Origin: Candidatus Babeliales bacterium
Lineage (GTDB): Bacteria; Babelota; Babeliae; Babelales; Vermiphilaceae
Length of the DNA stretch: 64,000 nt
Reading direction: 5' to 3'
Assembly: GCA_963743635.1 (NCBI GenBank)
Contig: CAVUQO010000003.1
Span: 1 to 64,000 of the forward strand
The notes below the pieces were generated by a model, which was not told where the DNA came from, searched no databases, and worked only from the letters and a program-made list of their open reading frames with translations. Position 1 is the first letter of the stretch. Every line of letters starts with the position of its first letter. This document shows positions 1-40,416 of the stretch, piece by piece. Both the position numbers and the translations under genes were made by a program.

Positions 1-106
1 GTCACCATCACGTTTTTTGCCAGACTCTTGCTCCATCGCCCCCATGCGCCATGCAACGATTCCAATCGCCGAATACTGCAACTGCTATGATTTTATTTCT
101 CTCCAT
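1..106 (-). CDS. 5' end of a further BTB/Skp1-WD40 array paralog (runs off the window)
   Basis: Nearly identical to 2062-2162 (MERNKIIAVAV...WRMGAMEQESGKKRD). One extra base near 71 shifts the frame, probably a sequencing error. Confidence 0.8.
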
Positions 107-259
107 TTTTCCCCCTTTTAAGAACTGATGTGAATCCCTATCTCACATCTTGCATGATCTATTCTTGCAGAATTACCCATGCAAAAACAATGAAATAATG
201 ATACGGCCCCGGGAGTATACCTCTCCCGGGGCCATATTTCATTTTGTTCTAATATTATG
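107..259. repeat. WD40-array intergenic unit (terminator hairpin 205-233, putative promoter and RBS on - strand)
   Basis: ~150-bp spacer repeated between each array gene. Contains hairpin GGCCCCGGGAG-tatacct-CTCCCGGGGCC; AAGGGGG precedes the start on the - strand. Confidence 0.85.
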
Positions 260-2162
260 CTATTGCATTGTTTCTCGAATTAACTTTTGAAGTTCTGCTT
301 GATCTTCGCGCCGTAGCTTTTGCCATTGAATCATATTCAAAATATTGTTAATCCAATCCATTTTACTTATCTTCTGCTTTTTATCGCGAGCCCACAGTAA
401 TAGATGTTCAAATAACGCTGTATCAAAATCAGATATTCCTGGTAATGATTTTGGCAAAAGCCCCACTATTTTTGCCGTATCATCTCGAGATCCGGTCACT
501 ACCCTATTGCCATCTGCTGATATCGCTACTGAATTAACCGAATCAGTATGCGCAAACGTATACTGCTCAATCCATGCACTGCCATTCCATGCTACTATCT
601 TTGCCGAACCATCTTTAGATCCTGTCACCACCCTATTGCCATCTGCGGATATCGCTACTGATGCAACCGAATTATTATGCGCAATATTATATTGCTCAAC
701 CCATGCATTGCCATTCCATGCAACTATCTTTGCCGTTCTATCTAAAGATCCTGTCACCACCCTATTGCCATCTGCTGATATCGCTACTGAATCAACTATC
801 ATAGTATGCCGAATCGTATACTGCTCAATCCATGCATTGCCATTCCATGCAACTATCTTCGCCGTATAATCCCAAGATCCCGTCACCACTCTCGTACCAT
901 CTGCTGATATCGCTACTGAACTAACCGTATGATTATACGGAATCATATACTGCTCAATCCATGCATTGCCATTCCACGCAACTATCTTTGCCGTCATATC
1001 AATAGATCCCGTCACCACCCTATTGGCATCTGCTGCTATCGCTACTGATAAAACCCTCCCCTCATTATGACGAATCGTATATTGCTCAACCCACGCAGCC
1101 CCATTCCATGCAACTATCTTTGCTGTATCATCTTCAGATCCCGTCACTACCTTATTGCCATCTGCTGATATCGCTACTGACCTAACCATCCCACGATGCG
1201 CAATATTATATTGCTCAAGCCATGCATTGCCATTCCACGCAACTATCTTTGCCGTGTCATCCCAAGATCCCGTCACCACCGTATTGCCATCTGCTGATAT
1301 CGCTACTGAATCAACTATCATAGTATGCGAATAGTATACTGCTCAAGCCATGCATTGCCATTCCATACATTATCTTTGCCGTTTTATCAACAGATCCCGT
1401 CACTACCCTATTGCCATCTGCTGATATCGCTACTGACAAAACTATATCATCATGCTCAATCGTATACTGCTCAAGCCATATTCCTGATCTTGGCATATTT
1501 TCCGCAATCTGCTTTTTCAAATGAGGGAACAAATTAGTTATCAATGCCACATATTCCTGATCGCCTTGACTTAACAGTCTCATTGATTCATCTGACATGA
1601 TCATATCTGCTATCTGATGCGCATAGAGCTCTAGCAATGATGCTTGCTGTAAAAAATCGGCGGCTTGTAATTGCGCTATTAATACCTCTAATGCATCTCT
1701 ATCAAACGCAACTGCCGGCATAGTTTGCATTATTCTTCTTACTGCCTGTTGCTCCGTCTCATTTAGTTGCTGCTGAGCGCGCACTTGCTCCACCCAACCC
1801 AGGTCGTTCAGCAGCTCTTGAAAAAGGTCACTGCTTATTTCAGGTAAATTTACCGCCCTTTGTTGCTGTTCTCTAAACTCCGAACTCAGCATTGCATTAA
1901 AATAATCAAATAAACGCGCTTGATTGATAGGCACATCCAATACTTTGTCATAACTCAATATCACCCTAATCATTCCTACTGGAATATCTTCCTCGTGTGC
2001 ACCTTGAAGTCGCTGCCTCTTGGTGGACTGTGCACCGCCTATATTCTTGGACATCTCTCCAGCATCACGTTTTTTGCCAGACTCTTGCTCCATTGCCCCC
2101 ATGCGCCATGCAACGATTCCAATCGCCAATACCGCAACTGCTATGATTTTATTTCTCTCCAT
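260..2162 (-). CDS. Secreted BTB/Skp1-like + 8x WD40 repeat protein (split by apparent frameshifts near 1328 and 1370)
   Basis: ORFs 1311..2162 and 260..1321 join into one paralog of the next three genes. BTB-like LFDYFNAMLSSEFREQQQRAVNLPEISSDLFQELL. Two single-base losses relative to the repeat consensus. Confidence 0.85.
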
Positions 2163-2315
2163 TTTTTCCCCCTTTTAAGATCTGATGTGAATACCTATCT
2201 CACATCTTGCATCACTTATTCTTGCAGAATTGCCCATGCAAAAACAATGAAATAATGATACGGCCCCGGGGAAGTTTATCTCTCTCCCGAGGCCGTTATC
2301 ATTTTATTCTGACTA
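2163..2315. repeat. WD40-array intergenic unit copy
   Basis: Homologous to 107-259; hairpin 2261-2295. Confidence 0.85.
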
Positions 2316-4145
2316 CTACTGCCGCACTGCACGCTGCATTGTTTCTCGAATCATTTTCTGCAATTCTTTTTTCGCAATAGACTCCACATCTCGCCATTGG
2401 ATACTTCGCAGTATATCTCCTGCCCAACCTGCTTTAGATATTTTCTGCCCACTTCTTTTTGCCCACATCAATAGATGTTCAAATAAACAGGCATCAAAAT
2501 CAGATATCCCCGGCAATGATTTTGGCAAAAGTCCCACTATCTTCGCCCTATTATCCCAAGATCCCATCACCACTTTATTGCCATCTGCTGATATCGCTAC
2601 TGATAAAACCCAATCAGTATGCGCAAACGTATACTGCTCAATCCATGCACTGCCATTCCATGCTACTATCTTTGCCGAACCATCTTTAGATCCTGTCACC
2701 ACCCTATTGCCATCTGCTGATATCGCTACTGATGCAACCGAATTATTATGCGCAATATTATATTGCTCAACCCATGCATTGCCATTCCATGCAATTATCT
2801 TTGCCGTATTATCCCAAGATCCCGTCACTACCCTATTGCCATCTGCTGATATCGCTACTGATAAAACCCTCTCAGTATGCGGAATCGTATACTGCTCAAT
2901 CCATGCATTGCCATTCCATGCAAATATCTTTGCCGTATTATCCAAAGATCCCGTCACTACCCTATTACCATCTGCTGATATCGCTACTGATTTAACCGAC
3001 TCAGCACCATGCCGAATCGTATACTGCTCAACCCATGCAGCGCCATTCCATACAACTATCTTTGCCGTTTTATCAACAGATCCCGTCACTACCCTATTGC
3101 CATCTGCTGATATCGCTACTGATAAAACCGCTTTATTATGCGCAATCGTATACTGATCAACCCATGCGTTACCGTTCCATGCAACTATTTTTGCCATATT
3201 ATCATAAGATCCCATCACCACCCTATTGCCATCTGCTGATATCGCTACTGATAAAACCTCCCTATTATGCCGAATCGTATGCTGCTCAATCCATGCATTG
3301 CCATCCCATGCAACTATTTTTGCCGTACCATCCTCAGATCCGGTCACTACCGTATTGCCATCTGCGGATATCGCTACTGACGCAACCCAATTAGTATGCG
3401 CAATCGTATGCTGCTCAATCCATGCATTGCCATTCCATGCAATTATCTTTGCCGTATTATCTAAAGATCCCGTCACCACTTTATTGCCATCTGCCGATAT
3501 CGCTACTGATAAAACCTCCCTATTATGCCGAATCGTATACTGCTCAAGCCATATTCCTGCTCTTGGCATATTTTCCGCAATATGCTCTTTCAGATGAGGA
3601 AACAAATTAGTTATCAATGCGACATATTCCTGATCGCCTTGACTTAGCAGTTCCATCGATGCACGTGATATGATCATATCTGCTATCTGATGCGCATAGA
3701 GCTCTAGCAATGTCATCTGCCCTAAATAAACTGCCCCCTCAAATGCCTTTACTAGCTGCGATAACATCTGTCGATTAAAATCAACCCGAGGCATAGCGCT
3801 TACTATTCTTCTTGCTGCTTCCTGCTCACTCTCATTTTCATGCATTTGGCGCCGCACATCTTCCACCCATGGTAAATCCGCAATCAGATGCTGCAAGATT
3901 TCTTGCGTAACATTAGTTAAGGGAACCCCATTCCTAAACCCTTCCGGATCTTCAACGCTCTCAATCAGATCATTAAGTGTCCCAAAAAGCCTTGCCTGAT
4001 CGTAAGGTAGAGTAGTAACTCCATTGTCATCTTTTGTGATCAATTTGAGCACCTGCGCTTGCCCGCCCTGCTCCATCGCGCCCATGCGCCATGCAATAAT
4101 GCCAATCGCCAATACTGCAACTGCTATGATTTTATTTCTCTCCAT
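2316..4145 (-). CDS. Secreted Skp1/BTB-like + 8x WD40 repeat protein
   Basis: Signal peptide; Skp1-like LKLITKDD...LFGTLNDLIE...VPLTNVTQEILQHLI; eight 43-44 aa repeats H..V.SVAISADGN.VVTGS.D.TAKI.AW. Confidence 0.9.
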   Translation of the reverse strand: MERNKIIAVAVLAIGIIAWRMGAMEQGGQAQVLKLITKDDNGVTTLPYDQARLFGTLNDLIESVEDPEGFRNGVPLTNVTQEILQHLIADLPWVEDVRRQMHENESEQEAARRIVSAMPRVDFNRQMLSQLVKAFEGAVYLGQMTLLELYAHQIADMIISRASMELLSQGDQEYVALITNLFPHLKEHIAENMPRAGIWLEQYTIRHNREVLSVAISADGNKVVTGSLDNTAKIIAWNGNAWIEQHTIAHTNWVASVAISADGNTVVTGSEDGTAKIVAWDGNAWIEQHTIRHNREVLSVAISADGNRVVMGSYDNMAKIVAWNGNAWVDQYTIAHNKAVLSVAISADGNRVVTGSVDKTAKIVVWNGAAWVEQYTIRHGAESVKSVAISADGNRVVTGSLDNTAKIFAWNGNAWIEQYTIPHTERVLSVAISADGNRVVTGSWDNTAKIIAWNGNAWVEQYNIAHNNSVASVAISADGNRVVTGSKDGSAKIVAWNGSAWIEQYTFAHTDWVLSVAISADGNKVVMGSWDNRAKIVGLLPKSLPGISDFDACLFEHLLMWAKRSGQKISKAGWAGDILRSIQWRDVESIAKKELQKMIRETMQRAVRQ

Positions 4146-4297
4146 TTTTCCCCCTTTTAAAAACTGATATGAATCCCTATCTCACATCTTGCATGATCTA
4201 TTGTGGCAAAATTGATGATCTAAAAACAATGAAATAATGATACGGCCCCGGGGAAGTTTATCTCTCTCCCAAGGCCGTTATCATTTTATTCTGACTA
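4146..4297. repeat. WD40-array intergenic unit copy
   Basis: Homologous to 107-259 and 2163-2315. Confidence 0.85.
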
Positions 4298-6157
4298 CTA
4301 CTGCCGCACTGCACGCTGCATTGTTTCTCGAATCATTTTCTGCAATTCTTTTTTCGCAATAGACTCCACATCTCGCCATTGGATACTTCGCAGTATATCT
4401 CCTGCCCAGCCGGATTTAGATATTTTCTGCCCACTTCTTTTCGCCCACATCAATAGATGCTCAAATAAACAGGCATCAAAATCAGATATCCCTGGTAATG
4501 ATGTTGGGAGGCATCCAACTATCTTTGCCGTACGATCTTCAGATCCCGTCACCACCTTATTGCCATCTGCTGATATCGCTACTGACCAAACCCAATGATT
4601 ATGACGAATCGTATACTGCTCAACCCATGCGTTGCTATTCCACGCAACTATCTTTGCCGTATTATCCCAAGATCCCGTCACTACCCTATTGCCATCTGCT
4701 GATATCGCTACTGATTCAATCTCAGCACCATGCCGAATCGTATACTGCTCAAGCCATGCATTGCCATTCCATGCAACTATCTTTACCGTACCATCCTGAG
4801 ATCCCGTCACTACCCTATTGCCATCTGCTGATATCGCTACTGATACAACCCAATTATTATGACGAATCGCATACTGCTCAATCCATGCATTGCCATCCCA
4901 TGCAACTATCTTTGCCGTATTATCTAAAGATCCCGTCACCACCTTATTGCCATCTGCTGATATCGCTACTGATACAACCCCAGCAGTATGCGGAATCGTA
5001 TACTGCTCAATCCATGCATTGCCATTCCACACAACTATCTTTGCCGTACCATCCAAAGATCCCGTCACCACCCTATTGCCATCTGCTGATATCGCTACTG
5101 ATCTAACCTCCCTATTATGCCCAATCGTATGCTGCTCAATCCATGCATTGCCATCCCATGCAAATATCTTTGCCGTTCTATCTAAAGATCCCGTCACCAC
5201 CTTATTGCCATCTGCTGATATCGCTACTGAACTAACCCACTCAGTATGCCGAATCGTATACTGCTCAATCCATGCATTGCCATCCCATGCAACTATCTTT
5301 GCCGTTCTATCTAAAGATCCCGTCACCACCTTATTGCCATCTGCTGATATTGCTACTGAGTTAACCGGGCTATTATGCGCAATCACATGCTGCTCAATCC
5401 ATGCATTGCCATCCCATACCACTATCTTTGCCGTATGATCTAAAGATCCGGTCACCACCTTATTGCCACCTGCTGACAGCGCTACTGATTTAACTATCCC
5501 ATTATGCCGAATCGTATACTGCTCAAGCCATATTGCTGGTATGCTTTTCACAATATGCAACGCCAGTTCAAAAGGCAACTCATTCACTAAGGCAGCGACG
5601 CCGCGACCGTATTTCTTATCGACTTGACTCAACAAGCTCATTGATGCATCGGACATGATCATGCCTACTATCTGATGTGTATACAGTTCTATTAATGCCT
5701 TTTGTTGTAAAAAATCTGCTGCCTTTAATTTAACCGCCAATGCGCTTAATCTATCTCGATTGAATGCTACCGCCGGCATGGTTTTCGCCATTCTTTTTGC
5801 CGCTTGCTCTTCAGTCTCATTTTGCTGCCTATTAATCCGCACCTGCTGCGCCCACGGCAATTCCGCTAATAATGTTTTGAAGATACCCATTGAAATAGTA
5901 TTACTGAGCGGCAATCTATTTGCTTCAGCTGGATTCATCGCCTGCATATAACCACGCATATCGCTAAACATTTCAAAAAGCCGCAGCAGATCCCATGGAA
6001 CGTCAACGCTTTCCTCATTACCAGTGCTATTGATTTGATAAACCGTTATCATTTCTTGACCAGCCTGCGCTTGCCCGCCCTGCTCCATCGCCCCCACACG
6101 CCATGCAATAATGCCAATCGCCAGCACGGCAACTGCTATAATTTTATTTCTTTCCAC
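4298..6157 (-). CDS. Secreted Skp1/BTB-like + 8x WD40 repeat protein
   Basis: GTG start; same architecture; LKAADFLQQKALIELYTHQIV resembles the Skp1/BTB C-terminal helices. Confidence 0.9.
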   Translation of the reverse strand: MERNKIIAVAVLAIGIIAWRVGAMEQGGQAQAGQEMITVYQINSTGNEESVDVPWDLLRLFEMFSDMRGYMQAMNPAEANRLPLSNTISMGIFKTLLAELPWAQQVRINRQQNETEEQAAKRMAKTMPAVAFNRDRLSALAVKLKAADFLQQKALIELYTHQIVGMIMSDASMSLLSQVDKKYGRGVAALVNELPFELALHIVKSIPAIWLEQYTIRHNGIVKSVALSAGGNKVVTGSLDHTAKIVVWDGNAWIEQHVIAHNSPVNSVAISADGNKVVTGSLDRTAKIVAWDGNAWIEQYTIRHTEWVSSVAISADGNKVVTGSLDRTAKIFAWDGNAWIEQHTIGHNREVRSVAISADGNRVVTGSLDGTAKIVVWNGNAWIEQYTIPHTAGVVSVAISADGNKVVTGSLDNTAKIVAWDGNAWIEQYAIRHNNWVVSVAISADGNRVVTGSQDGTVKIVAWNGNAWLEQYTIRHGAEIESVAISADGNRVVTGSWDNTAKIVAWNSNAWVEQYTIRHNHWVWSVAISADGNKVVTGSEDRTAKIVGCLPTSLPGISDFDACLFEHLLMWAKRSGQKISKSGWAGDILRSIQWRDVESIAKKELQKMIRETMQRAVRQ

Positions 6158-6313
6158 TTTTCCCCCTTTTAAAAACTGATATGAATCCCTATCTCATACC
6201 TTACATGATCTATTGTGGCAAAATTGATGATCTAAAAACAATGAAATAATGATACGGCCCCGGGGAAGTTTATCTCTCTCCCGAGGCCGTTATCATTTTA
6301 TTCTAATATTATG
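6158..6313. repeat. WD40-array intergenic unit copy
   Basis: Homologous to the other spacers. A partial copy (promoter side only) lies at 8162-8250. Confidence 0.85.
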
Positions 6314-8161
6314 CTACTGCATTGTTTCTCGAATTAATTGTTTCAGCGTTTCTGCAGTATTTGTTTCTGCTTTTTCCCACAAAATATGGTTTCGCATATC
6401 TCCTGCCCATCCTCTATTAGATATTTTCTGCTCACTTCTCTTTGCCCACAGCAATAGATGTTCAAATAAACAGGCATCAAAATCAGATATCCCCGGTAAT
6501 GATTTTGGCAAAAGTCCCACTATTTTTGCCGTATTATCTCGAGATCCCGTCACCACCTTATTGCCATCTGCTGATATCGCTACTGAGTCAACGTAACCAT
6601 TATGCCGAATCGTATGCTGCTCAACCCATGCGTTGCCATCCCACGCAACTATTTTTGCCATATTATCATAAGATCCCGTCACCACTTTATTGCCATCTGC
6701 CGATATCGCTACTGAAAAAATCGAATTATTATGCGCAATCGTATGCTGCTCAATCCATGCATTGCCATCCCATGCAACTATCTTTGCCGTCCTATCCCAC
6801 GATCCCGTCACTACCCTATTGCCATCCGCTGATATTGCTACTGATCTAACCGAACTATTATGCTGAATCGTACGCTGCTCAACCCATGCATTACCATTCC
6901 ATACCACTATCTTTGCCGTATTATCTAAAGATCCCGTCACTACCCTATTGCCATCTGCTGATATCGCTACTGATAAAACCCAATTATTATGACGAATCAT
7001 ATACTGCTCAATCCATGCAGTACCATTCCATGCAACTATCTTTGCCGTATTATCTAAAGATCCCGTCACTATCCTATTGCCATCTGCTGATATCGCTACT
7101 GATCTAACCTCCCTATTATGCTGAATCGCATGCTGCTCAATCCATGCAGTACCATTCCATGCAACTATCCTTGCCGTATTATCCAAAGATCCCGTCACCA
7201 CCTTATTGCCATCTGCTGATATCGCTACTGACCAAACCCAGCCATTATGCGCAATCGGAGGCTGCTCAACCCATGCATTGCCATTCCATACCACTATCTT
7301 TGCCGTATTATCTAAAGATCCCGCCACTACCCTATTGCCATCTGCTGATATCGCTACCGAATTAACCACTTGAGTATGCGGAATCGTATGTTGCTCAACC
7401 CATGCATTGCCATTCCATGCAACTATCTTTGCCGTATTATCTCGAGATCCCGTCACCACCTTATTGCCATCTGCTGATATCGCTACTGAATTAACCCAAT
7501 GATTATGACCAATCGTATACTGCTCAAGCCATATTCCTGCTCTTGGCATACTTTTCAGAATATGCAACGCCAGTTCAGGAGGCAACTCATTCACTAAGGC
7601 AGCGACGTCGTGACCGTATTTCTTATCGACTTGACTCAACAATCTCATTGATGCCTCGGACATGATCATGCCTACTATCTGATGCGTATACAGTTCTATT
7701 AATGCCTGTTGTTGTAAAAAATCTGCTGCCTTTAATTTAACCGCCAATGCGCTTAATCTATCTCGATTGAATGCTACCGCCGGCATGGTTTTCGCTATTC
7801 TTTTTGCCGCTTGCTCTTCAGTCTCATTTTGCTGCTGGTTAATCCGCACCTGCTGCACCCACGGCAAGTCCGCTAATAATGTTTTGAAGATATCCATTGA
7901 AATACCAGCGAGCAGCAATCTATTTGCTTCAGATGGATTCATCGCCTGCACATAACCACGCATATCGCTAAACATTTCAAAAAGCCGCAGCAGATCCCAT
8001 GGAACGTCAACGCTTTCCTCATTACCAGTGCTATTGATTTGATAAACCGTTATCATTTCTTGACCAGCCTGCGCTTGCCCGCCCTGCTGCATCGCCCCCA
8101 TGCGCCATGCAATAATCCCAATCGCCAATGCCGCAACTGCTATAATTTTATTTCTTTCCAC
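6314..8161 (-). CDS. Secreted Skp1/BTB-like + 8x WD40 repeat protein
   Basis: ORF 6314..8191; start placed at GTG 8161 by alignment to the paralogs; 8 WD40 repeats. Confidence 0.9.
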   Translation of the reverse strand: MERNKIIAVAALAIGIIAWRMGAMQQGGQAQAGQEMITVYQINSTGNEESVDVPWDLLRLFEMFSDMRGYVQAMNPSEANRLLLAGISMDIFKTLLADLPWVQQVRINQQQNETEEQAAKRIAKTMPAVAFNRDRLSALAVKLKAADFLQQQALIELYTHQIVGMIMSEASMRLLSQVDKKYGHDVAALVNELPPELALHILKSMPRAGIWLEQYTIGHNHWVNSVAISADGNKVVTGSRDNTAKIVAWNGNAWVEQHTIPHTQVVNSVAISADGNRVVAGSLDNTAKIVVWNGNAWVEQPPIAHNGWVWSVAISADGNKVVTGSLDNTARIVAWNGTAWIEQHAIQHNREVRSVAISADGNRIVTGSLDNTAKIVAWNGTAWIEQYMIRHNNWVLSVAISADGNRVVTGSLDNTAKIVVWNGNAWVEQRTIQHNSSVRSVAISADGNRVVTGSWDRTAKIVAWDGNAWIEQHTIAHNNSIFSVAISADGNKVVTGSYDNMAKIVAWDGNAWVEQHTIRHNGYVDSVAISADGNKVVTGSRDNTAKIVGLLPKSLPGISDFDACLFEHLLLWAKRSEQKISNRGWAGDMRNHILWEKAETNTAETLKQLIRETMQ

Positions 8162-8424
8162 TTTTCCCCCCATTTTTATATCTGATATCAATTCCTATCT
8201 CATCCCTTACATGATCTATTGTGGCACAATTGATGATCTAAAAACAATGAAGAATCAAAAAAGCCCGACAAGCTCGATGTAAGCAACCCAACATTATTGG
8301 AATCTCAATTTTCAAAAATCTGATTATTAGGCTTACTTCTCTCCTTCGCCCCTCCTCCTTTGCTAAACCAAGGGTTAAAACTCGTGGTGGAAGCGCGGAG
8401 CGCAAGAAAAAATAACTCGATTAT

Positions 8425-33129: not shown

Positions 33130-33232
33130 CTCTCGATCGTCTTTGCGAGGACGATCGAGAGTCTTACATTAAGTCCACATTGATTAAAAATTGTTAGTTT
33201 TTCAGGGTTCTCTAAATTTGGTTCATAGTACC
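33130..33232. repeat. Collapsed RPE-like hairpin plus shared 70-bp module
   Basis: CTCTCGATCGTC-tttgcgag-GACGATCGAGAG. 33165-33232 is a reverse-complement homolog of 43524-43590. Confidence 0.8.
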
Positions 33233-33837
33233 TAATCAAGATTCGAAATTAATTGCCATATGTGCGCCCTGCCATCACTAGATGCAGTCACCACTCTATT
33301 ACCATCCGGTGAGAATGATGCTGACGTAACATCTCGATCATCACCCTCCAAGGTATGCAATAATGCCCCACTATTTGCATCCCATATCTTTGCCGTTGCA
33401 TCTTTACATGCAGTCACCACTCTATTACCATCCGATGAGAATGATGCTGAATTAACCACAGTAGTATCCCACAATGTATGTACTAGCTTCCCATTATTTG
33501 CATTCCATATCTTTGCCCTTCCATCACTAGGTGCCGTCACTACTCTATTACCATCCGGCGAGAATGATGCTGACTTAACATTTCCATCATCACCCTCCAA
33601 GCTATGCAATAATCCCCCACTCTTTACATCCCATATTTTTGTCGTTCCATCTTTAGACGCAGTCACTACCCTATTACCATCCGATGAGAATGATACTGAA
33701 TTAATCACATTACTATGCCACAATGTATGCTGATCCTTCCATGCATTCTTTACAACTGGTCGCTGCATCGCCCCCATGCGCCACACAACAATGCCCATCA
33801 CAACTACCACTGCTGCTATAACATTTTTTCTTTCCAT
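33232..33837 (-). CDS. Secreted short WD40 repeat protein (4 repeats)
   Basis: Leader MERKNVIAAVVVVMGIVVWRMGAM similar to the array genes; repeats SASFSPDGNRVVTA.D..AKIWD. Confidence 0.88.
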   Translation of the reverse strand: MERKNVIAAVVVVMGIVVWRMGAMQRPVVKNAWKDQHTLWHSNVINSVSFSSDGNRVVTASKDGTTKIWDVKSGGLLHSLEGDDGNVKSASFSPDGNRVVTAPSDGRAKIWNANNGKLVHTLWDTTVVNSASFSSDGNRVVTACKDATAKIWDANSGALLHTLEGDDRDVTSASFSPDGNRVVTASSDGRAHIWQLISNLD

Positions 33838-37156: not shown

Positions 37157-37327
37157 TCATACAATTTCCTCTTATATCACTATAATAAGGCGAACTCGAT
37201 CTAAGAAAAAAGGAGACGAACGGGAATAGAGAAAGACTTTTTTAACTATGTATGAATTAAGTATCGATCAGCCTAAATTGTTCAAAAAAAAGAAATCTTA
37301 TTAACTATATTGATAAAGGATATAGGT

Positions 37328-38836
37328 ATGAATACTCATCAATCTAAGGGCATTGTATTATTGCTCCTCATATTAATCGGCGCTCCCATGTATCTTCATG
37401 GTATCACTATAACCCCCGTAACAGGCTCTCCCTTTACGGACCTGCCAAACTACTTCGGCGCAGGACTTTGTTATTCCCCTAATGGCCAATGGCTTGCATG
37501 CGCTAATAGTGATGAACCTGGTAGTGTCTCCATTTATGCGGTTGCCTCAAATGGTGTAATAACGCAGATCACAGGATCACCCTTTGTAACGCATGGCCTT
37601 GAGCCAGACTGTGTTGCCTACTCACCTGATGGGCAGTTTTTGGTTGTGGGTAATTATTTGAGTAATAATTCTGGAGGTCTTCTAAGTACGATATCGCTCT
37701 TTTCTGTAAATCAAAGTACAGGCGCATTGACGCAACTTGATCCTAGTACAGGCTCGTCATCGCCTGCGACACTGGAAACGGCAGGCTATGATTTAGAAAC
37801 AATCTACTATTCGCCCAATGGCAAATTTATTGCTGCCGCACTTTCTAACAATACAAATTACGGGGAAGTTGGCATGTATACGGTAAATTCCAGCACCGGC
37901 GCATTAACACTTGCTGGAACATTCCCTACAACCCATCCCCTCGATGATGATGTTTCCGATGAAATTGCTTTTTCTCCCGATAGCAACTATATCGCGCAAG
38001 CAAATAGTGATGGCACAAATACGATAACTATTTTTACTGTTGATCAGAGTACCGGAGTATTAGGGCCAAATAATGAGGGGGTTTATGGCACTGATTATAC
38101 GGTGACAGAAGGAGCAGGTTTTTTTTCGGGCATAGCCTATTCACCCAATGGCAAACTACTCGTAGTAAGCGATACACATGATAATCTTTTTACCTTCACG
38201 CTGAATAACGGGGTACCCACCTATGCTGCAACGATCGCTCCAGCATCGTACATATCTGGGGACACCTCTGTTGTTTTCTCTCCTGATTCTCAGCTGATAG
38301 CATTAGCAAACGATCAGGATACTTATATTTATGTATTTAGCGTTACTGAAAACGGCGCTATGACGCAAGTGGCGCAGTTGAGTGCTATAGAGAACATAAC
38401 AGATGTAGTGTTTTCCCCAACTCTTAATGATCCAATATCCTTTCTTTCTGCTTGCGGATCTACAGCTTCCCCGAGCACTAGAGGACGATTCCCCCTTACC
38501 GGCGGCGCTATAGCAAGCTACATCGTGCCAGTTGCATCATCTTCACCATCTTCACCAACCAACGTGACCGCAACGCGCACGCGCAATATATTTCTCTTGC
38601 AAACTGATCTGATTAACTTGATCACCTGGGGTGCACCAACGAGTGGAAGTCCCGTTACTTATAACATCTATCGCGATCCGGCGCTCACGCAACTAATTGG
38701 CATTGTGCCTGCAACAAGCCCGCTTCAATTTTATGATCATGATCGCCAACCAAATGTTACCTATACCTATTACATCACCGCTGTTGATGGAAGTGGCAAC
38801 AATTCACTCCCAAGCATCGTGAGCATCGTAGGGTAA
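37328..38836 (+). CDS. Secreted beta-propeller (lactonase-like) protein with C-terminal FN3-like domain
   Basis: Repeated YSPNG/FSPDS blades, GSPF motifs, C-terminal YNIYR...YTYYITAVD. Confidence 0.85.
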   Translation: MNTHQSKGIVLLLLILIGAPMYLHGITITPVTGSPFTDLPNYFGAGLCYSPNGQWLACANSDEPGSVSIYAVASNGVITQITGSPFVTHGLEPDCVAYSPDGQFLVVGNYLSNNSGGLLSTISLFSVNQSTGALTQLDPSTGSSSPATLETAGYDLETIYYSPNGKFIAAALSNNTNYGEVGMYTVNSSTGALTLAGTFPTTHPLDDDVSDEIAFSPDSNYIAQANSDGTNTITIFTVDQSTGVLGPNNEGVYGTDYTVTEGAGFFSGIAYSPNGKLLVVSDTHDNLFTFTLNNGVPTYAATIAPASYISGDTSVVFSPDSQLIALANDQDTYIYVFSVTENGAMTQVAQLSAIENITDVVFSPTLNDPISFLSACGSTASPSTRGRFPLTGGAIASYIVPVASSSPSSPTNVTATRTRNIFLLQTDLINLITWGAPTSGSPVTYNIYRDPALTQLIGIVPATSPLQFYDHDRQPNVTYTYYITAVDGSGNNSLPSIVSIVG

Positions 38837-38857
38837 AGAGGTCACACCATATTCACC

Positions 38858-38945
38858 TGCCCAACCGAGGAGCAATTCCCTGGTTGGGCATAATTCTTGC
38901 TTCCTATTTTACGCCTATGTTACGCTCCAGAAAAATCTTATAAAC
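38858..38945 (+). repeat. Hairpin plus promoter unit of cassette-like array
   Basis: TGCCCAACCGAGGAGCAATTCCCTGGTTGGGCA-TAATTC then TTGCTT-18bp-TACGCT with extended -10 TG. Confidence 0.85.
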
Positions 38946-38967
38946 TATATTAATAAAGGATATAGGT

Positions 38968-40416
38968 ATGAATACTCATCAATCTAAGGGCATTGTATTA
39001 TTGCTCCTCATATTAATCGGCGCTCCCATGTATCTTCATGGTATCACTATAACCCCCGTAACGGGCTCTCCCTTTACAGGCCTGCCCAACAGCGAGCTCT
39101 CAGGGCTCTGTTATTCTCCCAATGGCAAATGGCTCGCATGCGCTAATTCTGGGCTTGGTCCTGGCACGGTCTCGATTTATGCGGTTGCCTTAAATGGTGT
39201 AATAACGCAGATCTACGAATCACCCTTTGCAACGAATGGCTATACTCCAACATGTGTTGCTTACTCACCTGATGGTAATTTTTTAGTTGCGGGTAATACT
39301 GAAGATTCTCCAAGCACGATATCGCTTTTTTCTGTAAATCAAAGTACAGGCGCGTTGACGCAACTTGATCCTACAGGCGGCTATCCATCGACTGACACAC
39401 TGGAAACGGAAGGCTATTTTTTAAAAATAATCTACTATTCGCCCAATGGCAAATTTATTGCTGCGGCACTTAATAGCTATGGATCCTACAGCGCAATTGG
39501 CATGTATACGGTAAATTCCAGCACCGGCGCATTAACACTTGCTGGAACATTCCCTACAAACCACTCTCTCGATAATGATGTTTCCGATGAAATTGCTTTT
39601 TCTCCCGATAGCAACTATATCGCGCAAGCAAATGATGATGACACAAATACGATAACTATTTTTACTGTTGATCAGAGTACCGGAGCATTAGGGCCAAAAA
39701 ATGGGGAGGTTTATGGCACTGATTATACGGTGACAGGAGGATCAGGTTATTTTTCGAGCATAGCCTATTCACCCAATGGCAAACTGCTCGTAGTAAGCGA
39801 TACAAATGATAATCTTTTTACCTTCACGCTGAATAATGGGGTACCCACCTATGCTGCAACGATCGCTCCAACATTGCCTGTGAGAGATGCAGAGACCTCT
39901 GTTGTTTTCTCTCCTGATTCTCAGCTGATAGCGCTAGCAAATGATCATGATACTTATATTTATGTATTTAGCGTTACTGAAACCGGCGCTATGGCTCAAG
40001 TGGCGCAGTTGAGTTCTCCAACTGAGATATCAGATTTAGTGTTTTCCCCAACTCTTAATGATCCAATATCCTTTCTTTCTGCTTGCCGCAATCTCACTAT
40101 AGCAAGCTACATCGTGCCAATTTCATCATCTTCACCAACCAACGTGACCGCAACGCGCACGCGCAATATATTTCTCTTGCAAACTGATCTGATTAACTTG
40201 ATCACCTGGGGTGCACCAACAAGTGGAAGTCCCGTTACTTATAACATCTATCGCGATCCGGCGCTCACGCAACTAATTGGCATTGTGCCTGCAACAAGCC
40301 CGCTTCAATTTTATGATCATGATCGTCAACCAAATGTTACCTATACCTATTACATCACCGCTGTTGATGGAAGTGGCAATGCTTCGCTCCCAAGCATAGT
40401 GAGCATCGTAGGGTAA
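38968..40416 (+). CDS. Secreted beta-propeller + FN3-like protein (tandem paralog of 37328..38836)
   Basis: Identical leader, near-identical C-terminal domain, divergent loops. Confidence 0.88.
   Translation: MNTHQSKGIVLLLLILIGAPMYLHGITITPVTGSPFTGLPNSELSGLCYSPNGKWLACANSGLGPGTVSIYAVALNGVITQIYESPFATNGYTPTCVAYSPDGNFLVAGNTEDSPSTISLFSVNQSTGALTQLDPTGGYPSTDTLETEGYFLKIIYYSPNGKFIAAALNSYGSYSAIGMYTVNSSTGALTLAGTFPTNHSLDNDVSDEIAFSPDSNYIAQANDDDTNTITIFTVDQSTGALGPKNGEVYGTDYTVTGGSGYFSSIAYSPNGKLLVVSDTNDNLFTFTLNNGVPTYAATIAPTLPVRDAETSVVFSPDSQLIALANDHDTYIYVFSVTETGAMAQVAQLSSPTEISDLVFSPTLNDPISFLSACRNLTIASYIVPISSSSPTNVTATRTRNIFLLQTDLINLITWGAPTSGSPVTYNIYRDPALTQLIGIVPATSPLQFYDHDRQPNVTYTYYITAVDGSGNASLPSIVSIVG

What the first reader, a model, noticed from the sequence alone, without database searches (positions are those of the whole stretch)
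470..7540. WD40 blades are homogenised in DNA but hypervariable at six binding-face positions, with blade number fixed at 8
Seen: 32 repeats of 129 (sometimes 132) bp share an almost invariant frame (SVAISADGN.VVTGS.D.TAKI.AW.G.AW.EQ). Variation concentrates in H-x-x-x-V-x-S (NRE/L, TNW/A, NHW/W, NGY/D, TEW/S, RGM/R, etc.) and GS-x-D-x. All four complete genes have exactly 8 blades. Established: the equivalent positions form the propeller top face and are the positively selected sites in the concertedly evolving WD40 repeats of fungal HET-E/HNWD receptors. Inference: a recombination-driven, antibody-like binder repertoire, so effector substrate specificity can be re-rolled.
Basis: partly seen in the sequence, partly recalled or inferred. 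Interest (0 to 1): 0.85.

Follow-up and report, generated by a model that had tools for sequence, protein, structure and literature searches.

The report
Skp1-like WD40 binders with variable faces
A small parasitic bacterium carries a family of exported proteins that join a copy of the eukaryotic ubiquitin-ligase adaptor Skp1 to an eight-bladed propeller whose blades are almost identical except on the surface that grips other proteins, which suggests a stock of interchangeable host-protein binders.

Summary
Four tandem minus-strand genes carry 32 WD40 units (30 of 129 bp, 2 of 132 bp). These lie in the two top-face loops, at or beside the known WD40 hotspots R1-2, R1 and D-1. They include the four codons under positive selection in fungal HET-E.

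Across 72 units from 9 genes, nonsynonymous change at these codons exceeds frame synonymous change 4- to 15-fold. Frame DNA is equally alike within genes, between genes and between blade positions. The flanking domains of the same genes are synonymously saturated and mosaic. This indicates concerted evolution plus diversifying selection.

The array is not an NLR. Each protein is signal peptide, Skp1 homologue, 8-blade propeller and helical tail, and the tail is predicted to dock where F-boxes bind Skp1. The genome is Babeliales (Dependentiae). The most likely role is secreted SCF-receptor mimics.

"Antibody-like re-rolling" is not shown: I found no dedicated mechanism and no strain-level data. 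Gene 1's frameshifts are probably assembly errors, and two contig ends overlap. Hypervariable WD40 arrays are published, and this scan has noted them in at least 49 other genomes. The Skp1 fusion is the new element.

The parts
1..105 (-). 5' end (leader) of the next family gene, cut by the contig start. It is the same DNA as C2:1852-1951, the start of gene B.
   Evidence: The reverse complement of window 1-150 reads the family's leader. rc(C3:6-1954) equals C2:2-1951 at 99.59%.
260..2162 (-). Gene g1: leader, Skp1-like domain, 8 WD40 units and tail. Read as two ORFs (260-1321 and 1311-2162) because of two frameshifts near 1329 and 1370.
   Evidence: Duplicate assembly at C2:13-1698 with an open WD region. 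Extra base at 1370 in a metagenome contig.
464..1478 (-). WD40 array of g1: 8 units, one of 132 bp.
2316..4145 (-). Gene g2, 609 aa: leader, Skp1-like domain, 8-blade WD40 propeller and helical tail.
   Evidence: AlphaFold2 model with mean pLDDT 89.0 and pTM 0.78.
4068..4145 (-). g2 leader (residues 1-26): basic N-terminus, a 14-residue hydrophobic stretch, then the conserved ...W-R-M-G-A | M-E-Q junction. Read as a probable Sec signal peptide.
   Evidence: The motif occurs in 17 ORFs of the genome, all of this superfamily. Relatives carry A-x-A|M-type junctions at the same place. Low-confidence helix 4-21 in the model. Cleavage is inferred.
3552..4067 (-). g2 Skp1-homology domain (residues 27-198).
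   Evidence: Model pLDDT 90.3. Foldseek top hits are all Skp1/ASK1/Elongin C. VIA-align Z 11.3, rmsd 3.3, 128 residues aligned to SKP1, and all 50 rows shown are Skp1 chains. Profile against PDB sequences: SKP1 at E 2.1e-5.
2535..3551 (-). WD40 array of g2: 8 units, one of 132 bp.
2319..2534 (-). g2 C-terminal helical tail (72 aa), predicted to pack on the C-terminal helices of the Skp1-like domain.
   Evidence: Alignment A3. Complex prediction score 0.63 against a best control of 0.15. No Pfam or PDB sequence match.
4298..6157 (-). Gene g3, 619 aa, same architecture with N-domain type 2.
4517..5530 (-). WD40 array of g3: 8 units of 129 bp.
6314..8191 (-). Gene g4, same architecture. By homology the start is probably the GTG at 8161 rather than the TTG at 8191.
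6518..7531 (-). WD40 array of g4: 8 units of 129 bp.

Best explanation
The array is part of a lineage-restricted gene family of a Babeliales (Dependentiae) bacterium, a group of obligate parasites of protists. The family has at least 11 genes with 8-unit arrays at five or more loci; 9 of them share one repeat frame.

Each protein has four parts:
- a Sec-type signal peptide;
- a true homologue of Skp1, the adaptor that links F-box substrate receptors to cullin-1;
- a closed 8-bladed WD40 propeller;
- a roughly 70-residue helical tail that folds back onto the Skp1-like C-terminal helices, the site where F-boxes bind.

Proposed working: the proteins are exported and act in the host as self-contained SCF-receptor mimics, or at least as host-protein binders. 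The propeller top face is the target-binding surface.

Diversity arises in the germline. About 70 near-identical blades at several loci exchange sequence by gene conversion and in-register recombination, which keeps the frame homogeneous and shuffles N-domains, tails and loop motifs. Selection favours new residues at seven top-face positions per blade. Blade number stays at 8 because the propeller must close: the first strand of unit 1 completes blade 8, and the N- and C-terminal domains must meet.

Shown: the repeat anatomy, the site pattern, dN above dS, homogenisation relative to the flanks, mosaicism, Skp1 homology and the taxon.
Inferred: secretion, cullin binding, ubiquitination and the identity of the targets.
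For: Site pattern. In 72 units from 9 genes, columns 8, 10, 11, 12, 14, 30 and 32 have 2.0-3.7 bits of entropy. The next highest column has 1.7 bits. These 7 of 43 columns hold 60.7% of all pairwise nonsynonymous differences. 71 of the 72 units carry a distinct combination at the six loop positions 10, 11, 12, 14, 30 and 32.

Top face. DSSP on the model puts columns 9-12 in the d-to-a loop, column 14 at the start of strand a and columns 30-32 in the b-to-c turn. The two invariant loops (19-23 and 40-43) are the other two loops. V-R1-R2-V and D-1 in Wu 2012 correspond to columns 12, 14 and 30.

Selection.
- In the 59 unit pairs whose frames differ by at most 3% of bases, frame pS is 0.036 and hypervariable pN is 0.541, a ratio of 15. 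On average 5.47 of 7 hypervariable residues differ.
- Over all 2556 pairs the ratio is 4.1.
- A tree-based count gives dN over frame dS of 2.1-5.2 at all seven columns, all significant after Bonferroni correction.

Homogenisation.
- Mean frame distance is 0.089 within a gene, 0.092 between genes at the same blade number and 0.095 between genes at different blade numbers.
- The nearest neighbour of a unit lies in another gene at another blade number for 44 of 72 units.
- N-domains of the three types have dS 0.60-2.49, while the frame dS of any two units averages 0.155.

Mosaicism.
- g2 and g3 tails have dS 0.19 but their N-domains have dS 1.07. g3 and g4 N-domains have dS 0.07 but their tails have dS 0.72.
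- Of 10 unit pairs with an identical first-loop motif, 1 shares the second-loop motif and 1 cannot be scored.
- Other WD40 subfamilies in the genome are each homogenised to a different frame, with internal identity 0.70-0.81.

Skp1 homology.

Tail docking: score 0.63 against a best control of 0.15. That mark was reached by 116 of 157 solved complexes and 2 of 215 mismatched pairs. The runs agree in at least 94% of contacts and the partner pLDDT is at least 80. The interface covers N-domain residues 132-171 and tail residues 11-40.

Leader. In Chromulinavorax, 44% of CDS and 78% of ankyrin proteins carry signal peptides (Deeg 2019, passages read).

Taxon: the 5 of the 120 best Lon hits that carry an organism name are all Babeliales or Dependentiae.
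Against: - No evidence here for export, host localisation, cullin binding or any target.
- Pfam scores for Skp1_POZ (16.5 bits, cut-off 21.9) and BTB (18.3 bits, cut-off 20.5) are below threshold. PF01466 (the Skp1 C-terminal domain) was not listed.
- The tail has no F-box signature by Pfam or by profile search of PDB sequences.
- The complex prediction may pass through likeness to solved Skp1-F-box structures, and it used my own alignments.
- The dN/dS figures come from paralogous repeats that recombine. Frame dS is therefore not a clean clock for the hypervariable codons, and the parsimony tree is only approximate.
- Synonymous difference inside the hypervariable codons is itself high (pS 0.43-0.46). 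With that local denominator the pooled ratio is only 1.5-1.7.
- Column 2 (I/V/L) also passes the tree test, so homoplasy from recombination inflates counts.
- Strain-level variants of related proteins show only weak enrichment at hypervariable sites: 4 of 217 residues, against 5 of 1019 frame residues and 13 of 1247 outside the repeats.
- One full-length metagenomic relative has 7 contiguous units, so 8 is not absolute.
Confidence: 0.55

Rival explanations
1. Binder without ligase function. The proteins are exported, but the Skp1-like domain and tail only form a structural clamp or dimerisation module. The propellers act as surface or periplasmic adhesins or receptor-binding proteins, or as sequestering decoys for host proteins, with no link to cullins.
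For: - The N-terminal hydrophobic segment could be an uncleaved anchor.
- The tail occupies the F-box site in cis, so the domain may be closed to host partners.
- The Pfam Skp1 and BTB scores are below threshold.
- No ubiquitin-pathway gene was seen next to the array.
Against: - Homology covers Skp1 residues 1-142, including the BTB/POZ part that carries the cullin-binding surface in Skp1 (the cullin-surface role is recalled knowledge).
- A eukaryote-only adaptor fold in an intracellular parasite is most simply read as host mimicry.
- Viral BTB-propeller proteins of this design bind cullin-3 (vaccinia A55, PMC6484134, abstract seen in the listing).
Confidence: 0.25
2. No diversifying selection. 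The seven positions are merely unconstrained loop residues that drifted. The frame looks homogeneous because of strong protein and codon constraint or a very recent amplification.
For: - The frame motif is conserved even in relatives at 41-58% identity, so purifying selection on the frame is strong.
- With the local synonymous denominator the pooled ratio is only 1.5-1.7.
Against: - Neutral sites cannot diverge faster than synonymous sites of the same unit, yet hypervariable pN is 15 times frame pS in the closest pairs.
- Hypervariable pN does not depend on frame distance: 0.541, 0.549, 0.565 and 0.571 across the four distance bins.
- Recent amplification alone does not explain N-domains with dS above 1 attached to arrays with dS near 0.15.
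- The excess is specific to the known contact positions.
Confidence: 0.07
3. Intracellular immune-type sensor. The array is the sensor end of a bacterial NLR-like or HET-E-like conflict system that recognises invaders such as phages or rival symbionts.
For: - The blade design and selected positions are the same as in fungal HNWD receptors.
- Earlier scan notes describe such arrays on bacterial NACHT, KAP, TIR and caspase proteins (unchecked).
Against: - No NACHT, NB-ARC, KAP, TIR or caspase domain was reported by Pfam in the four proteins.
- The N-terminal domain is Skp1-like.
- A signal-peptide-like leader precedes it.
- The repeat number is fixed rather than variable.
Confidence: 0.05
4. Targeted hypermutation. 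A dedicated mutator, such as a diversity-generating retroelement, rewrites the loop codons.
For: Variation is very sharply confined to a few codons, and hypervariable codon identity is near random at 45.6%.
Against: - No RVT_1 (PF00078) match in the genome, which is 85% complete; the control search rang in 3 of 14 control genomes.
- There are 72 diversified units and no template-variable pair.
- Recurrent loop motifs in new combinations fit shuffling.
- WD40 is not a known DGR target fold (recalled).
Confidence: 0.03

Closest known systems
Fungal HNWD/NWD receptors (HET-E, HET-D, HET-R of Podospora anserina). Paoletti 2007 PMC1805685 and Chevanne 2010 PMC2873952, passages read.
   Same: - A multi-gene family whose WD40 units evolve in concert within and between loci.
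- Two pairs of codons flanking the conserved V and D are under positive selection. HET-E codons 7, 9, 25 and 27 match columns 12, 14, 30 and 32 here in spacing and in their conserved neighbours.
- Loop-pair shuffling creates new combinations.
   Different: - No NACHT NTPase and no HET or other death domain. Here the partner domains are a signal peptide, a Skp1 homologue and a docking tail.
- Three further variable positions (8, 10, 11).
- Repeat number is fixed at 8 (one closed propeller) rather than variable between alleles.
- Bacterial, with no RIP.
- Probable direction of use is attack on a host rather than self-defence.
Highly-Repetitive (HR) prokaryotic WD40 proteins (Hu et al. 2017, PMC5587647, passages read), including the Nostoc 'highly repetitive propeller' PDB 2YMU (hit).
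   Same: - Mean pairwise identity of the 8 units is 0.73-0.77 in 8 of 9 genes, around the paper's 0.7 cut-off.
- The frame is conserved and the predicted hotspot sites are diverse.
   Different: - The paper describes single proteins and reads the pattern as recent repeat duplication. Here the same frame is shared by 9 genes at several loci whose other domains are old (dS above 1), which points to ongoing exchange.
- The domain partners differ.
- My identity measure (mean of all pairs) is not exactly the paper's.
Skp1 and SCF WD40 receptors (Fbw7/Cdc4, beta-TrCP). Skp1 chains in PDB entries 9kbf, 5v4b, 1nex and others.
   Same: - The N-domain aligns to Skp1 residues 1-142 (Z 11.3; profile E 2.1e-5).
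- The WD40 top face acts as the substrate site.
- 8-bladed propellers occur in Fbw7/Cdc4 (recalled).
- The tail is predicted to sit on the Skp1 helices that bind F-boxes.
   Different: - The adaptor and the receptor are one polypeptide.
- The F-box-site partner follows the propeller instead of preceding it, and it has no F-box sequence signature.
- A signal peptide is present.
- Cullin binding is untested.
Viral BTB/POZ-propeller proteins: mimivirus 'BTB/POZ domain and WD-repeat protein' R739 and relatives (BFVD hits), and poxvirus BTB-Kelch A55, which binds Cul3 (PMC6484134, listing abstract only).
   Same: - A POZ-fold adaptor domain is fused to a beta-propeller in parasites of amoebae or animals.
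- The families are paralogous.
- Full-length structural alignment spans 533 columns to R739.
   Different: - Sequence identity is only 10-13%.
- The domain here is closest to Skp1, not to BTB.
- The blades here are homogenised and hypervariable.
- It is bacterial and carries a Sec leader.
F-box, U-box and BTB-box 'eukaryotic-like' effectors of amoeba-associated bacteria (Legionella AnkB; TM6 WD40 and F-box genes, Yeoh 2016 PMC4776705, one passage read).
   Same: An intracellular bacterium of protists encoding parts of the host ubiquitin-ligase machinery together with repeat-type binding domains.
   Different: - Those mimic the receptor (F-box) and borrow host Skp1. This family carries the Skp1 part itself.
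- In my literature search, none of the 12 papers listed out of 38 combined Skp1 with Dependentiae or TM6 as its topic, and the Chromulinavorax paper has 0 occurrences of 'Skp1'.

Membership tests
WD40 repeat / beta-propeller (Pfam PF00400) | Repeats score above the Pfam gathering threshold and fold as 4-stranded blades of a closed propeller. | tested here: met
   185-194 bits against a cut-off of 27, with 8 stretches in each intact protein. The model has 32 strands in 8 blades at pLDDT 89. Foldseek top hits are WD40 propellers, including 8-bladed ODA16 and Rsa4 (their blade number is recalled).
Highly-Repetitive WD40 proteins (Hu et al. 2017) | Internal repeat identity of at least 0.7, with diversity at predicted hotspot sites. 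| tested here: met
   Mean pairwise unit identity is 0.73-0.77 in 8 of 9 genes and 0.67 in gene F. My measure is the mean of all pairs, not the paper's exact rule. The variable columns include R1-2, R1 and D-1.
Fungal HNWD/NWD NLRs (HET-E type) | A central NACHT NTPase and an N-terminal effector (HET or other) domain. | tested here: not met
   Pfam lists no NACHT, NB-ARC or HET domain in any of the four proteins at E up to 0.01. The N-terminal domain is Skp1-like.
Fungal HNWD/NWD NLRs (HET-E type) | Concerted evolution of the WD units across paralogues, with positive selection at the two codon pairs flanking the conserved V and D. | tested here: met
   Positions compared with Paoletti 2007.
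Fungal HNWD/NWD NLRs (HET-E type) | Repeat number varies between alleles and paralogues. | tested here: not met
   All 11 family genes with arrays in the genome have 8 units. 9 of 11 full-length metagenomic relatives have 8 and 2 have 7. Allelic variation within the species could not be tested.
Skp1 family | Skp1 fold: a BTB/POZ core plus C-terminal helices. | tested here: met
   VIA-align Z 11.3, rmsd 3.3, 128 residues aligned, model 4-153 to SKP1 1-142, and all 50 rows shown are Skp1 chains. Foldseek E 3e-4 and up, TM 0.5-0.7.
Skp1 family | Sequence membership: Pfam Skp1_POZ PF03931 and Skp1 PF01466 above threshold. | tested here: inconclusive
   Skp1_POZ scores 16.5 bits against a cut-off of 21.9, and PF01466 is not listed. 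A profile of 11 N-domains does find SKP1 chains at E 2.1e-5 (27.8 bits), with about 30 Skp1 sequences ranked first and Elongin C after them.
Skp1 family | Binds the cullin-1 N-terminal domain and F-box proteins. | not testable with these tools
   No host protein was available. The only related result is the predicted docking of the protein's own tail on the F-box site.
F-box/WD40 SCF substrate receptors (Fbw7, Cdc4, beta-TrCP) | An F-box motif (PF00646/PF12937). | tested here: not met
   No F-box family is listed for the full proteins or for the tail at E up to 10. A profile of 9 tails finds no F-box protein among PDB sequences.
BTB-domain cullin-3 adaptors (BTB-Kelch, viral BTB-WD) | A BTB/POZ domain above the Pfam threshold, fused to a propeller. 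| tested here: inconclusive
   BTB scores 18.3 bits against a cut-off of 20.5, in g1 only. Full-length structural matches to mimivirus BTB/POZ-WD proteins at 10-13% identity. The best structural matches of the domain are Skp1, not BTB proteins.
Diversity-generating retroelement targets | A reverse transcriptase and a template repeat near the variable gene. | tested here: not met
   No PF00078 match in the genome, which is 85% complete. No template-like invariant copy was seen among the units.

The most novel reading that the evidence does not exclude
These are single-chain SCF substrate receptors made by a bacterium. A Skp1 homologue, a propeller and an F-box-like tail that plugs into its own Skp1 form a closed module. 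The module docks directly on host cullin-1 and marks host proteins for degradation. The family's roughly 70 exchangeable blades act as a germline library from which new target specificities are assembled by gene conversion. That would be a natural, evolvable 'degrader' tool-kit, convergent with fungal immune receptors in how it diversifies but used for attack.
Probability: 0.3. Interest if true: 0.8.

Novelty: new variant of a known kind. Interest (0 to 1): 0.6.

Why it matters
Hypervariable, homogenised WD40 arrays are so far known as sensors, in fungal and bacterial NLR-like proteins. This case puts the same diversification logic into what looks like an offensive, secreted family of an obligate parasite of protists, joined to a bacterial copy of Skp1.

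If the Skp1-like domain engages host cullin, this is a new way for a pathogen to hijack ubiquitination: bringing the adaptor and the receptor in one chain. It would also be a natural example of a modular binder library on a very stable scaffold. The idea is directly testable, because each paralogue offers a defined 8 x 7-residue surface to map against host targets.

The case also shows that inter-locus concerted evolution can operate in a 1.45-Mb reduced genome.

Tried and rejected
1. The search for related loci in genome contigs with g2. Only two unrelated WD40 loci at 24-29% identity came back, and the own genome is left out. No use.

2. Strain variation from reads. The look-up of sequencing runs listed 10 soil or peat DNA runs from 4 studies, and no RNA holder was listed. 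Read laying on X1, X2, X3 and X9 returned only Logan contigs, mostly unitigs of 100-350 bases across the repeats.
   - Most 'other letters' sit 31 bases from a contig end, that is at k-mer branch points, or in N-domains that have 95%-identical paralogues.
   - The three joints have short sides of 25-51 bases.
   - I do not read any of these as strain variants or rearrangements.
   - The one usable result is the inserted base behind 1370 in X1.

3. 90%-identity clusters of g2, g3 and g4. The exact sequences are not in the collection, and the own-genome paralogues are singletons.

4. F-box nature of the tail. No Pfam family and no F-box among PDB sequences.

5. Mapping variable sites on coordinates. 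Model files are not readable from the script box. The mapping therefore rests on DSSP strand and loop positions and on published hotspot rules.

6. N-domain in other genomes of the same GTDB family. 0 of 60 with a single-protein query, so not found in those searched. Metagenome proteins show that relatives exist.

7. Formal codon-model tests (FEL, MEME, GARD) and a PHI test were not run; no such program is on the script machine. I used Nei-Gojobori pair counts and a parsimony count instead.

8. Earlier scan notes looked up by sequence and by an eight-word query gave nothing.

9. Rows dropped before counts.
   - The eight g1 units were replaced by the eight units of the C2 copy of the same gene in all 72-unit analyses.
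   - Genes P12 and K and the distant clusters were left out of the 72 because their frames differ.
   - The part of the last unit after K-I-V, the broken stretch of g1 and the second half of unit H_b5 were masked.

Full report
**What is there.** The first 8.2 kb of the window hold four tandem genes on the minus strand: g1 (260-2162), g2 (2316-4145), g3 (4298-6157) and g4 (6314-8191). Tandem Repeats Finder reports a 129-bp array of 7.9 copies in each. Read in frame, the arrays give 32 units, 30 of 129 bp and 2 of 132 bp. Pfam WD40 matches 8 stretches per intact protein, E 7e-56 to 9e-59. The window is the start of contig C3 of a 1.45-Mb, 3-contig genome of 42% G+C.

**Assembly caveat.** The reverse complement of C3:6-1954 equals C2:2-1951 at 99.59% identity, with 3 mismatches and 5 gap openings over 1952 columns. 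The two contig starts therefore overlap, and g1 is the same gene as the one at C2:13-1698. The eight differences are listed.
- The window copy lacks a base near 1329 and near 1370, which causes its two frameshifts.
- The C2 copy has its own indels in the N-domain.
- A metagenome contig (X1) also has the extra base behind 1370.

So g1 is probably intact in nature. The true tandem array is g4-g3-g2-g1-B, with gene B at C2:1852-3777.

**Site pattern.** I number a 43-column unit from the W of W-L-E-Q.
No other column exceeds 1.51. Frame DNA is 91.6% identical on average and the six codons are 45.6% identical.
- A unit HMM run over the six-frame translation of the genome finds 152 units in 23 arrays. 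Twelve arrays belong to this family and each has 8 units; one is split by a frameshift.
- After merging g1 with its duplicate, nine genes share the same frame: g1-g4, B, D, E, F and H. That gives 72 units.
- In those 72 units the seven columns have 2.0-3.7 bits against at most 1.7 elsewhere. They hold 60.7% of all pairwise nonsynonymous differences. 71 distinct combinations occur at the six loop positions.

**Where the sites lie.** The AlphaFold2 model of g2 (pLDDT 89.0, pTM 0.78) is a closed 8-blade propeller. By its DSSP:
- columns 1-8 are strand d;
- columns 9-12 are the d-to-a loop;
- columns 13-18 are strand a;
- columns 19-23 are the a-to-b loop (the invariant S-A-D-G-N);
- columns 24-29 are strand b;
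- columns 30-32 are the b-to-c turn;
- columns 33-39 are strand c;
- columns 40-43 are the c-to-d loop (N-G-N-A).

All seven variable columns lie in or next to the d-to-a loop and the b-to-c turn. None lies in the other two loops. By the rule of Wu et al. 2012 (V/L/I-R1-R2-V/L/I, and the residue before the tetrad Asp), columns 12, 14 and 30 are R1-2, R1 and D-1, the top-face hotspots (PMC3419727, passages read). Paoletti et al. 2007 found HET-E codons 7, 9, 25 and 27 under positive selection, flanking purifying codons 8 and 26 (PMC1805685, passages read). The spacing and the conserved V and D match columns 12, 14, 30 and 32 here. Model coordinates were not readable, so this mapping is topological.

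**Selection.**
- Pooled Nei-Gojobori counts over 72 units give pN 0.574 at the six positions, and pS 0.140 and pN 0.079 in the frame.
- Among the 59 unit pairs whose frames differ by at most 3% of bases, frame pS is 0.036 and hypervariable pN is 0.541, a ratio of 15. On average 5.47 of the 7 residues differ.
- Hypervariable pN hardly changes with frame distance: 0.541, 0.549, 0.565 and 0.571 across the four bins.
- A parsimony count on a FastTree tree gives dN over frame dS of 2.1-5.2 at all seven columns, all significant after Bonferroni correction. Column 2 (I/V/L) also passes at 2.5.

Against this reading, synonymous difference inside the variable codons is itself high (pS 0.43-0.46), so the ratio with the local denominator is only 1.5-1.7. 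Recombination also violates the tree model. Unconstrained drift cannot make sites diverge faster than synonymous sites of the same unit. The pattern therefore needs diversifying selection or a decoupling of histories that selection maintains.

**Homogenisation and recombination.**
- Mean frame distance is 0.089 within a gene, 0.092 between genes at the same blade number and 0.095 between genes at different blade numbers.
- The nearest neighbour of a unit is in another gene at another blade number for 44 of 72 units, in the same gene for 17, and in another gene at the same blade number for 11.
- The N-terminal domains fall into three types with dS 0.60-2.49 between types and 0.05-0.37 within. 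The frame dS of any two units averages 0.155.
- Domains are mosaic. g2 and g3 share a tail (dS 0.19) but not an N-domain (1.07). g3 and g4 share an N-domain (0.07) but not a tail (0.72).
- Of 10 unit pairs with the same first-loop motif, only 1 has the same second-loop motif and 1 cannot be scored.
- Other WD40 subfamilies in the genome (gene K, and the clusters at C3:664-669 kb and 795-802 kb) are each homogenised to a different frame, with internal identity 0.70-0.81. K varies at the same columns.
- No reverse transcriptase was found.

**What the proteins are.** The stretch before the propeller (g2 residues 27-198) folds with pLDDT 90.3.
- The Foldseek hits listed (49 rows) are all Skp1/ASK1 or Elongin C chains.
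- VIA-align gives Z 11.3, rmsd 3.3 and 128 aligned residues against SKP1, model 4-153 to Skp1 1-142. All 50 rows shown are Skp1 chains.
- A profile of 11 own-genome N-domains finds SKP1 among PDB sequences at E 2.1e-5, including the conserved A-A-N-Y-L...L-L-D helix. About 30 Skp1 sequences rank first and Elongin C follows.
- The ESM Atlas feature search also points to Skp1 clusters, best score 0.90, which is a lead only.
- Pfam alone is below threshold: Skp1_POZ 16.5 of 21.9 bits and BTB 18.3 of 20.5 bits.

The 72-residue tail has no family. Folded together with the N-domain it scores 0.63 against a best control of 0.15. That mark was reached by 116 of 157 solved complexes and 2 of 215 mismatches. 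The runs agree in at least 94% of contacts and the partner pLDDT is at least 80. It contacts N-domain residues 132-171, which align with or directly follow the last Skp1 helices in the structural match; in Skp1 the C-terminal helices hold the F-box (recalled). The pass may reflect likeness to solved Skp1-F-box complexes. It shows that likeness and does not show binding.

The leader (a basic start, 14 hydrophobic residues, then ...W-R-M-G-A|M-E/Q) occurs in 17 ORFs of the genome, all of this superfamily. More distant relatives have A-x-A|M-type junctions at the same place, which fits a Sec signal peptide. Cleavage is inferred.

**Organism and spread.**
- The window's Lon protease has close relatives at 94-96% identity. 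The 5 rows that carry an organism name among the best 120 are all Candidatus Babeliales or Candidatus Dependentiae.
- Genomes of the same family measure 0.8-1.7 Mb.
- In Chromulinavorax, a cultured member, 44% of CDS and 78% of ankyrin proteins carry signal peptides and export is by Sec (PMC6561590, passages read).
- The Skp1-like domain was found at 16 places in the own genome and in 0 of 60 other genomes of the GTDB family with a single-protein query.
- A profile search of 1.84 billion representative proteins gives only 85 hits at E up to 1e-3 and 39 at E up to 1e-10. The weakest are ordinary 120-200-residue Skp1-like proteins.
- Full-length relatives at 41-58% identity exist in metagenomes. 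Of 11 full-length ones, 9 have 8 units and 2 have 7; one of the two is diverged, so a unit may have been missed.
- The run listing places near-identical DNA in soil and peat metagenomes of 4 studies. Contigs of the 4 runs laid, from 3 studies, match the locus.

**Why eight blades.** Unit 1 begins with strand d, and the last unit ends after strand c. The first strand therefore completes blade 8. The N-terminal Skp1-like domain and the C-terminal tail are predicted to meet. Any change in unit number would break both features. In-register exchange between arrays preserves 8. This step is inferred.

**Comparison with what is known.**
- Highly repetitive WD40 proteins that vary at hotspot sites are described for prokaryotes (Hu 2017, PMC5587647, passages read).
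- Concerted evolution with positive selection is described for fungal HNWD genes.
- This scan has 61 notes on 'WD40 hypervariable' in at least 49 genomes, on NACHT, KAP, TIR, caspase and giant-virus proteins (unchecked).
- BTB/POZ-WD proteins of mimiviruses match the full-length model at 10-13% identity.

The new elements are the fusion to a Skp1 homologue with a cis-docking tail and a signal peptide, and exchange of blades among at least nine genes at several loci in a reduced parasite genome. In my search, none of the 12 papers listed out of 38 combined Skp1 with Dependentiae or TM6 as its topic. Papers outside the library cannot be excluded.

**Verdict.** I class it as a new variant of a known kind. 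Function as a secreted SCF-receptor mimic is the best-supported mechanism but remains untested.

Noticed in passing
window 1-1954 and genome contig C2:2-1951: The starts of contigs C3 and C2 are the same 1.95 kb in opposite orientation: 99.59% identity, 3 mismatches and 5 gap openings. The assembly can probably be joined there, and one family gene is represented twice, each copy with its own indels.
   Followed up: yes
window 33232-33837 (minus strand): A 201-aa ORF carries the same leader motif directly followed by only four WD40 repeats, with no Skp1-like domain. Two copies of such a half-propeller would be needed to make an 8-blade ring.
   Followed up: partly
genome C2:381419-383224 (gene K, locus L012): A family member with the same leader, Skp1-like domain and tail, but whose 8 blades are homogenised to a different, canonical G-H...W-N frame (internal identity 0.75). 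It varies at the same columns (11, 12, 14, 30, 32).
   Followed up: partly
genome C3:664-669 kb and C3:795-802 kb: Two further tandem clusters of WD40 genes. The first carries the leader and the Skp1-like domain at 30-35% identity. Each cluster is internally homogenised to its own frame, identity 0.70-0.81.
   Followed up: partly
genome C2:109192-111060 (P0012, locus L010): The gene next to D and E has the same architecture and 8 units, but its blades have diverged (mean identity 0.50, insertions of 6-20 residues between HMM matches). It looks like a copy that has left the homogenised pool.
   Followed up: partly
genome C2:115078 onward (223-aa ORF): The family's leader, 72% identical over 29 residues, is followed by an unrelated sequence, directly downstream of gene E. 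It may be a leader cassette on another cargo, or a remnant.
   Followed up: no
window about 4146-4180 and 6158-6190, and the equivalent places upstream of the paralogues: The roughly 36 bases upstream of the start codons are conserved between paralogues: the in-frame reading D-R-D-S-Y-Q-F-L-K-G-G-K recurs in g2, g3, B, E and F. The duplicated or exchanged unit therefore includes the 5' leader region.
   Followed up: no
genome C3:751807-753656 (gene H, locus L011): A family member interrupted by a frameshift inside blade 5, in the middle of a contig. It is either a real pseudogene or a consensus error.
   Followed up: no
protein P0002 (1020 aa, metagenome): It looks like two adjacent family genes read through as one: 8 units plus a tail, then a second partial Skp1-like domain and 6 units.
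   Followed up: no
window 37310-40416 (plus strand): Two adjacent paralogous beta-propeller genes of 508 and 482 aa (Lactonase/WD40-like Pfam matches), unrelated in frame to the finding. The window otherwise holds housekeeping genes (MurJ, Lon, ClpB, UvrC, HerA-like).
   Followed up: no
proteins P0014, P0121 and P0128 (metagenome relatives, one 90% cluster): The variants differ by a two-residue insertion and one hypervariable residue at a blade boundary. The variant form matches the boundary of an earlier blade in the same protein, which looks like an intragenic conversion tract between strains.
   Followed up: partly
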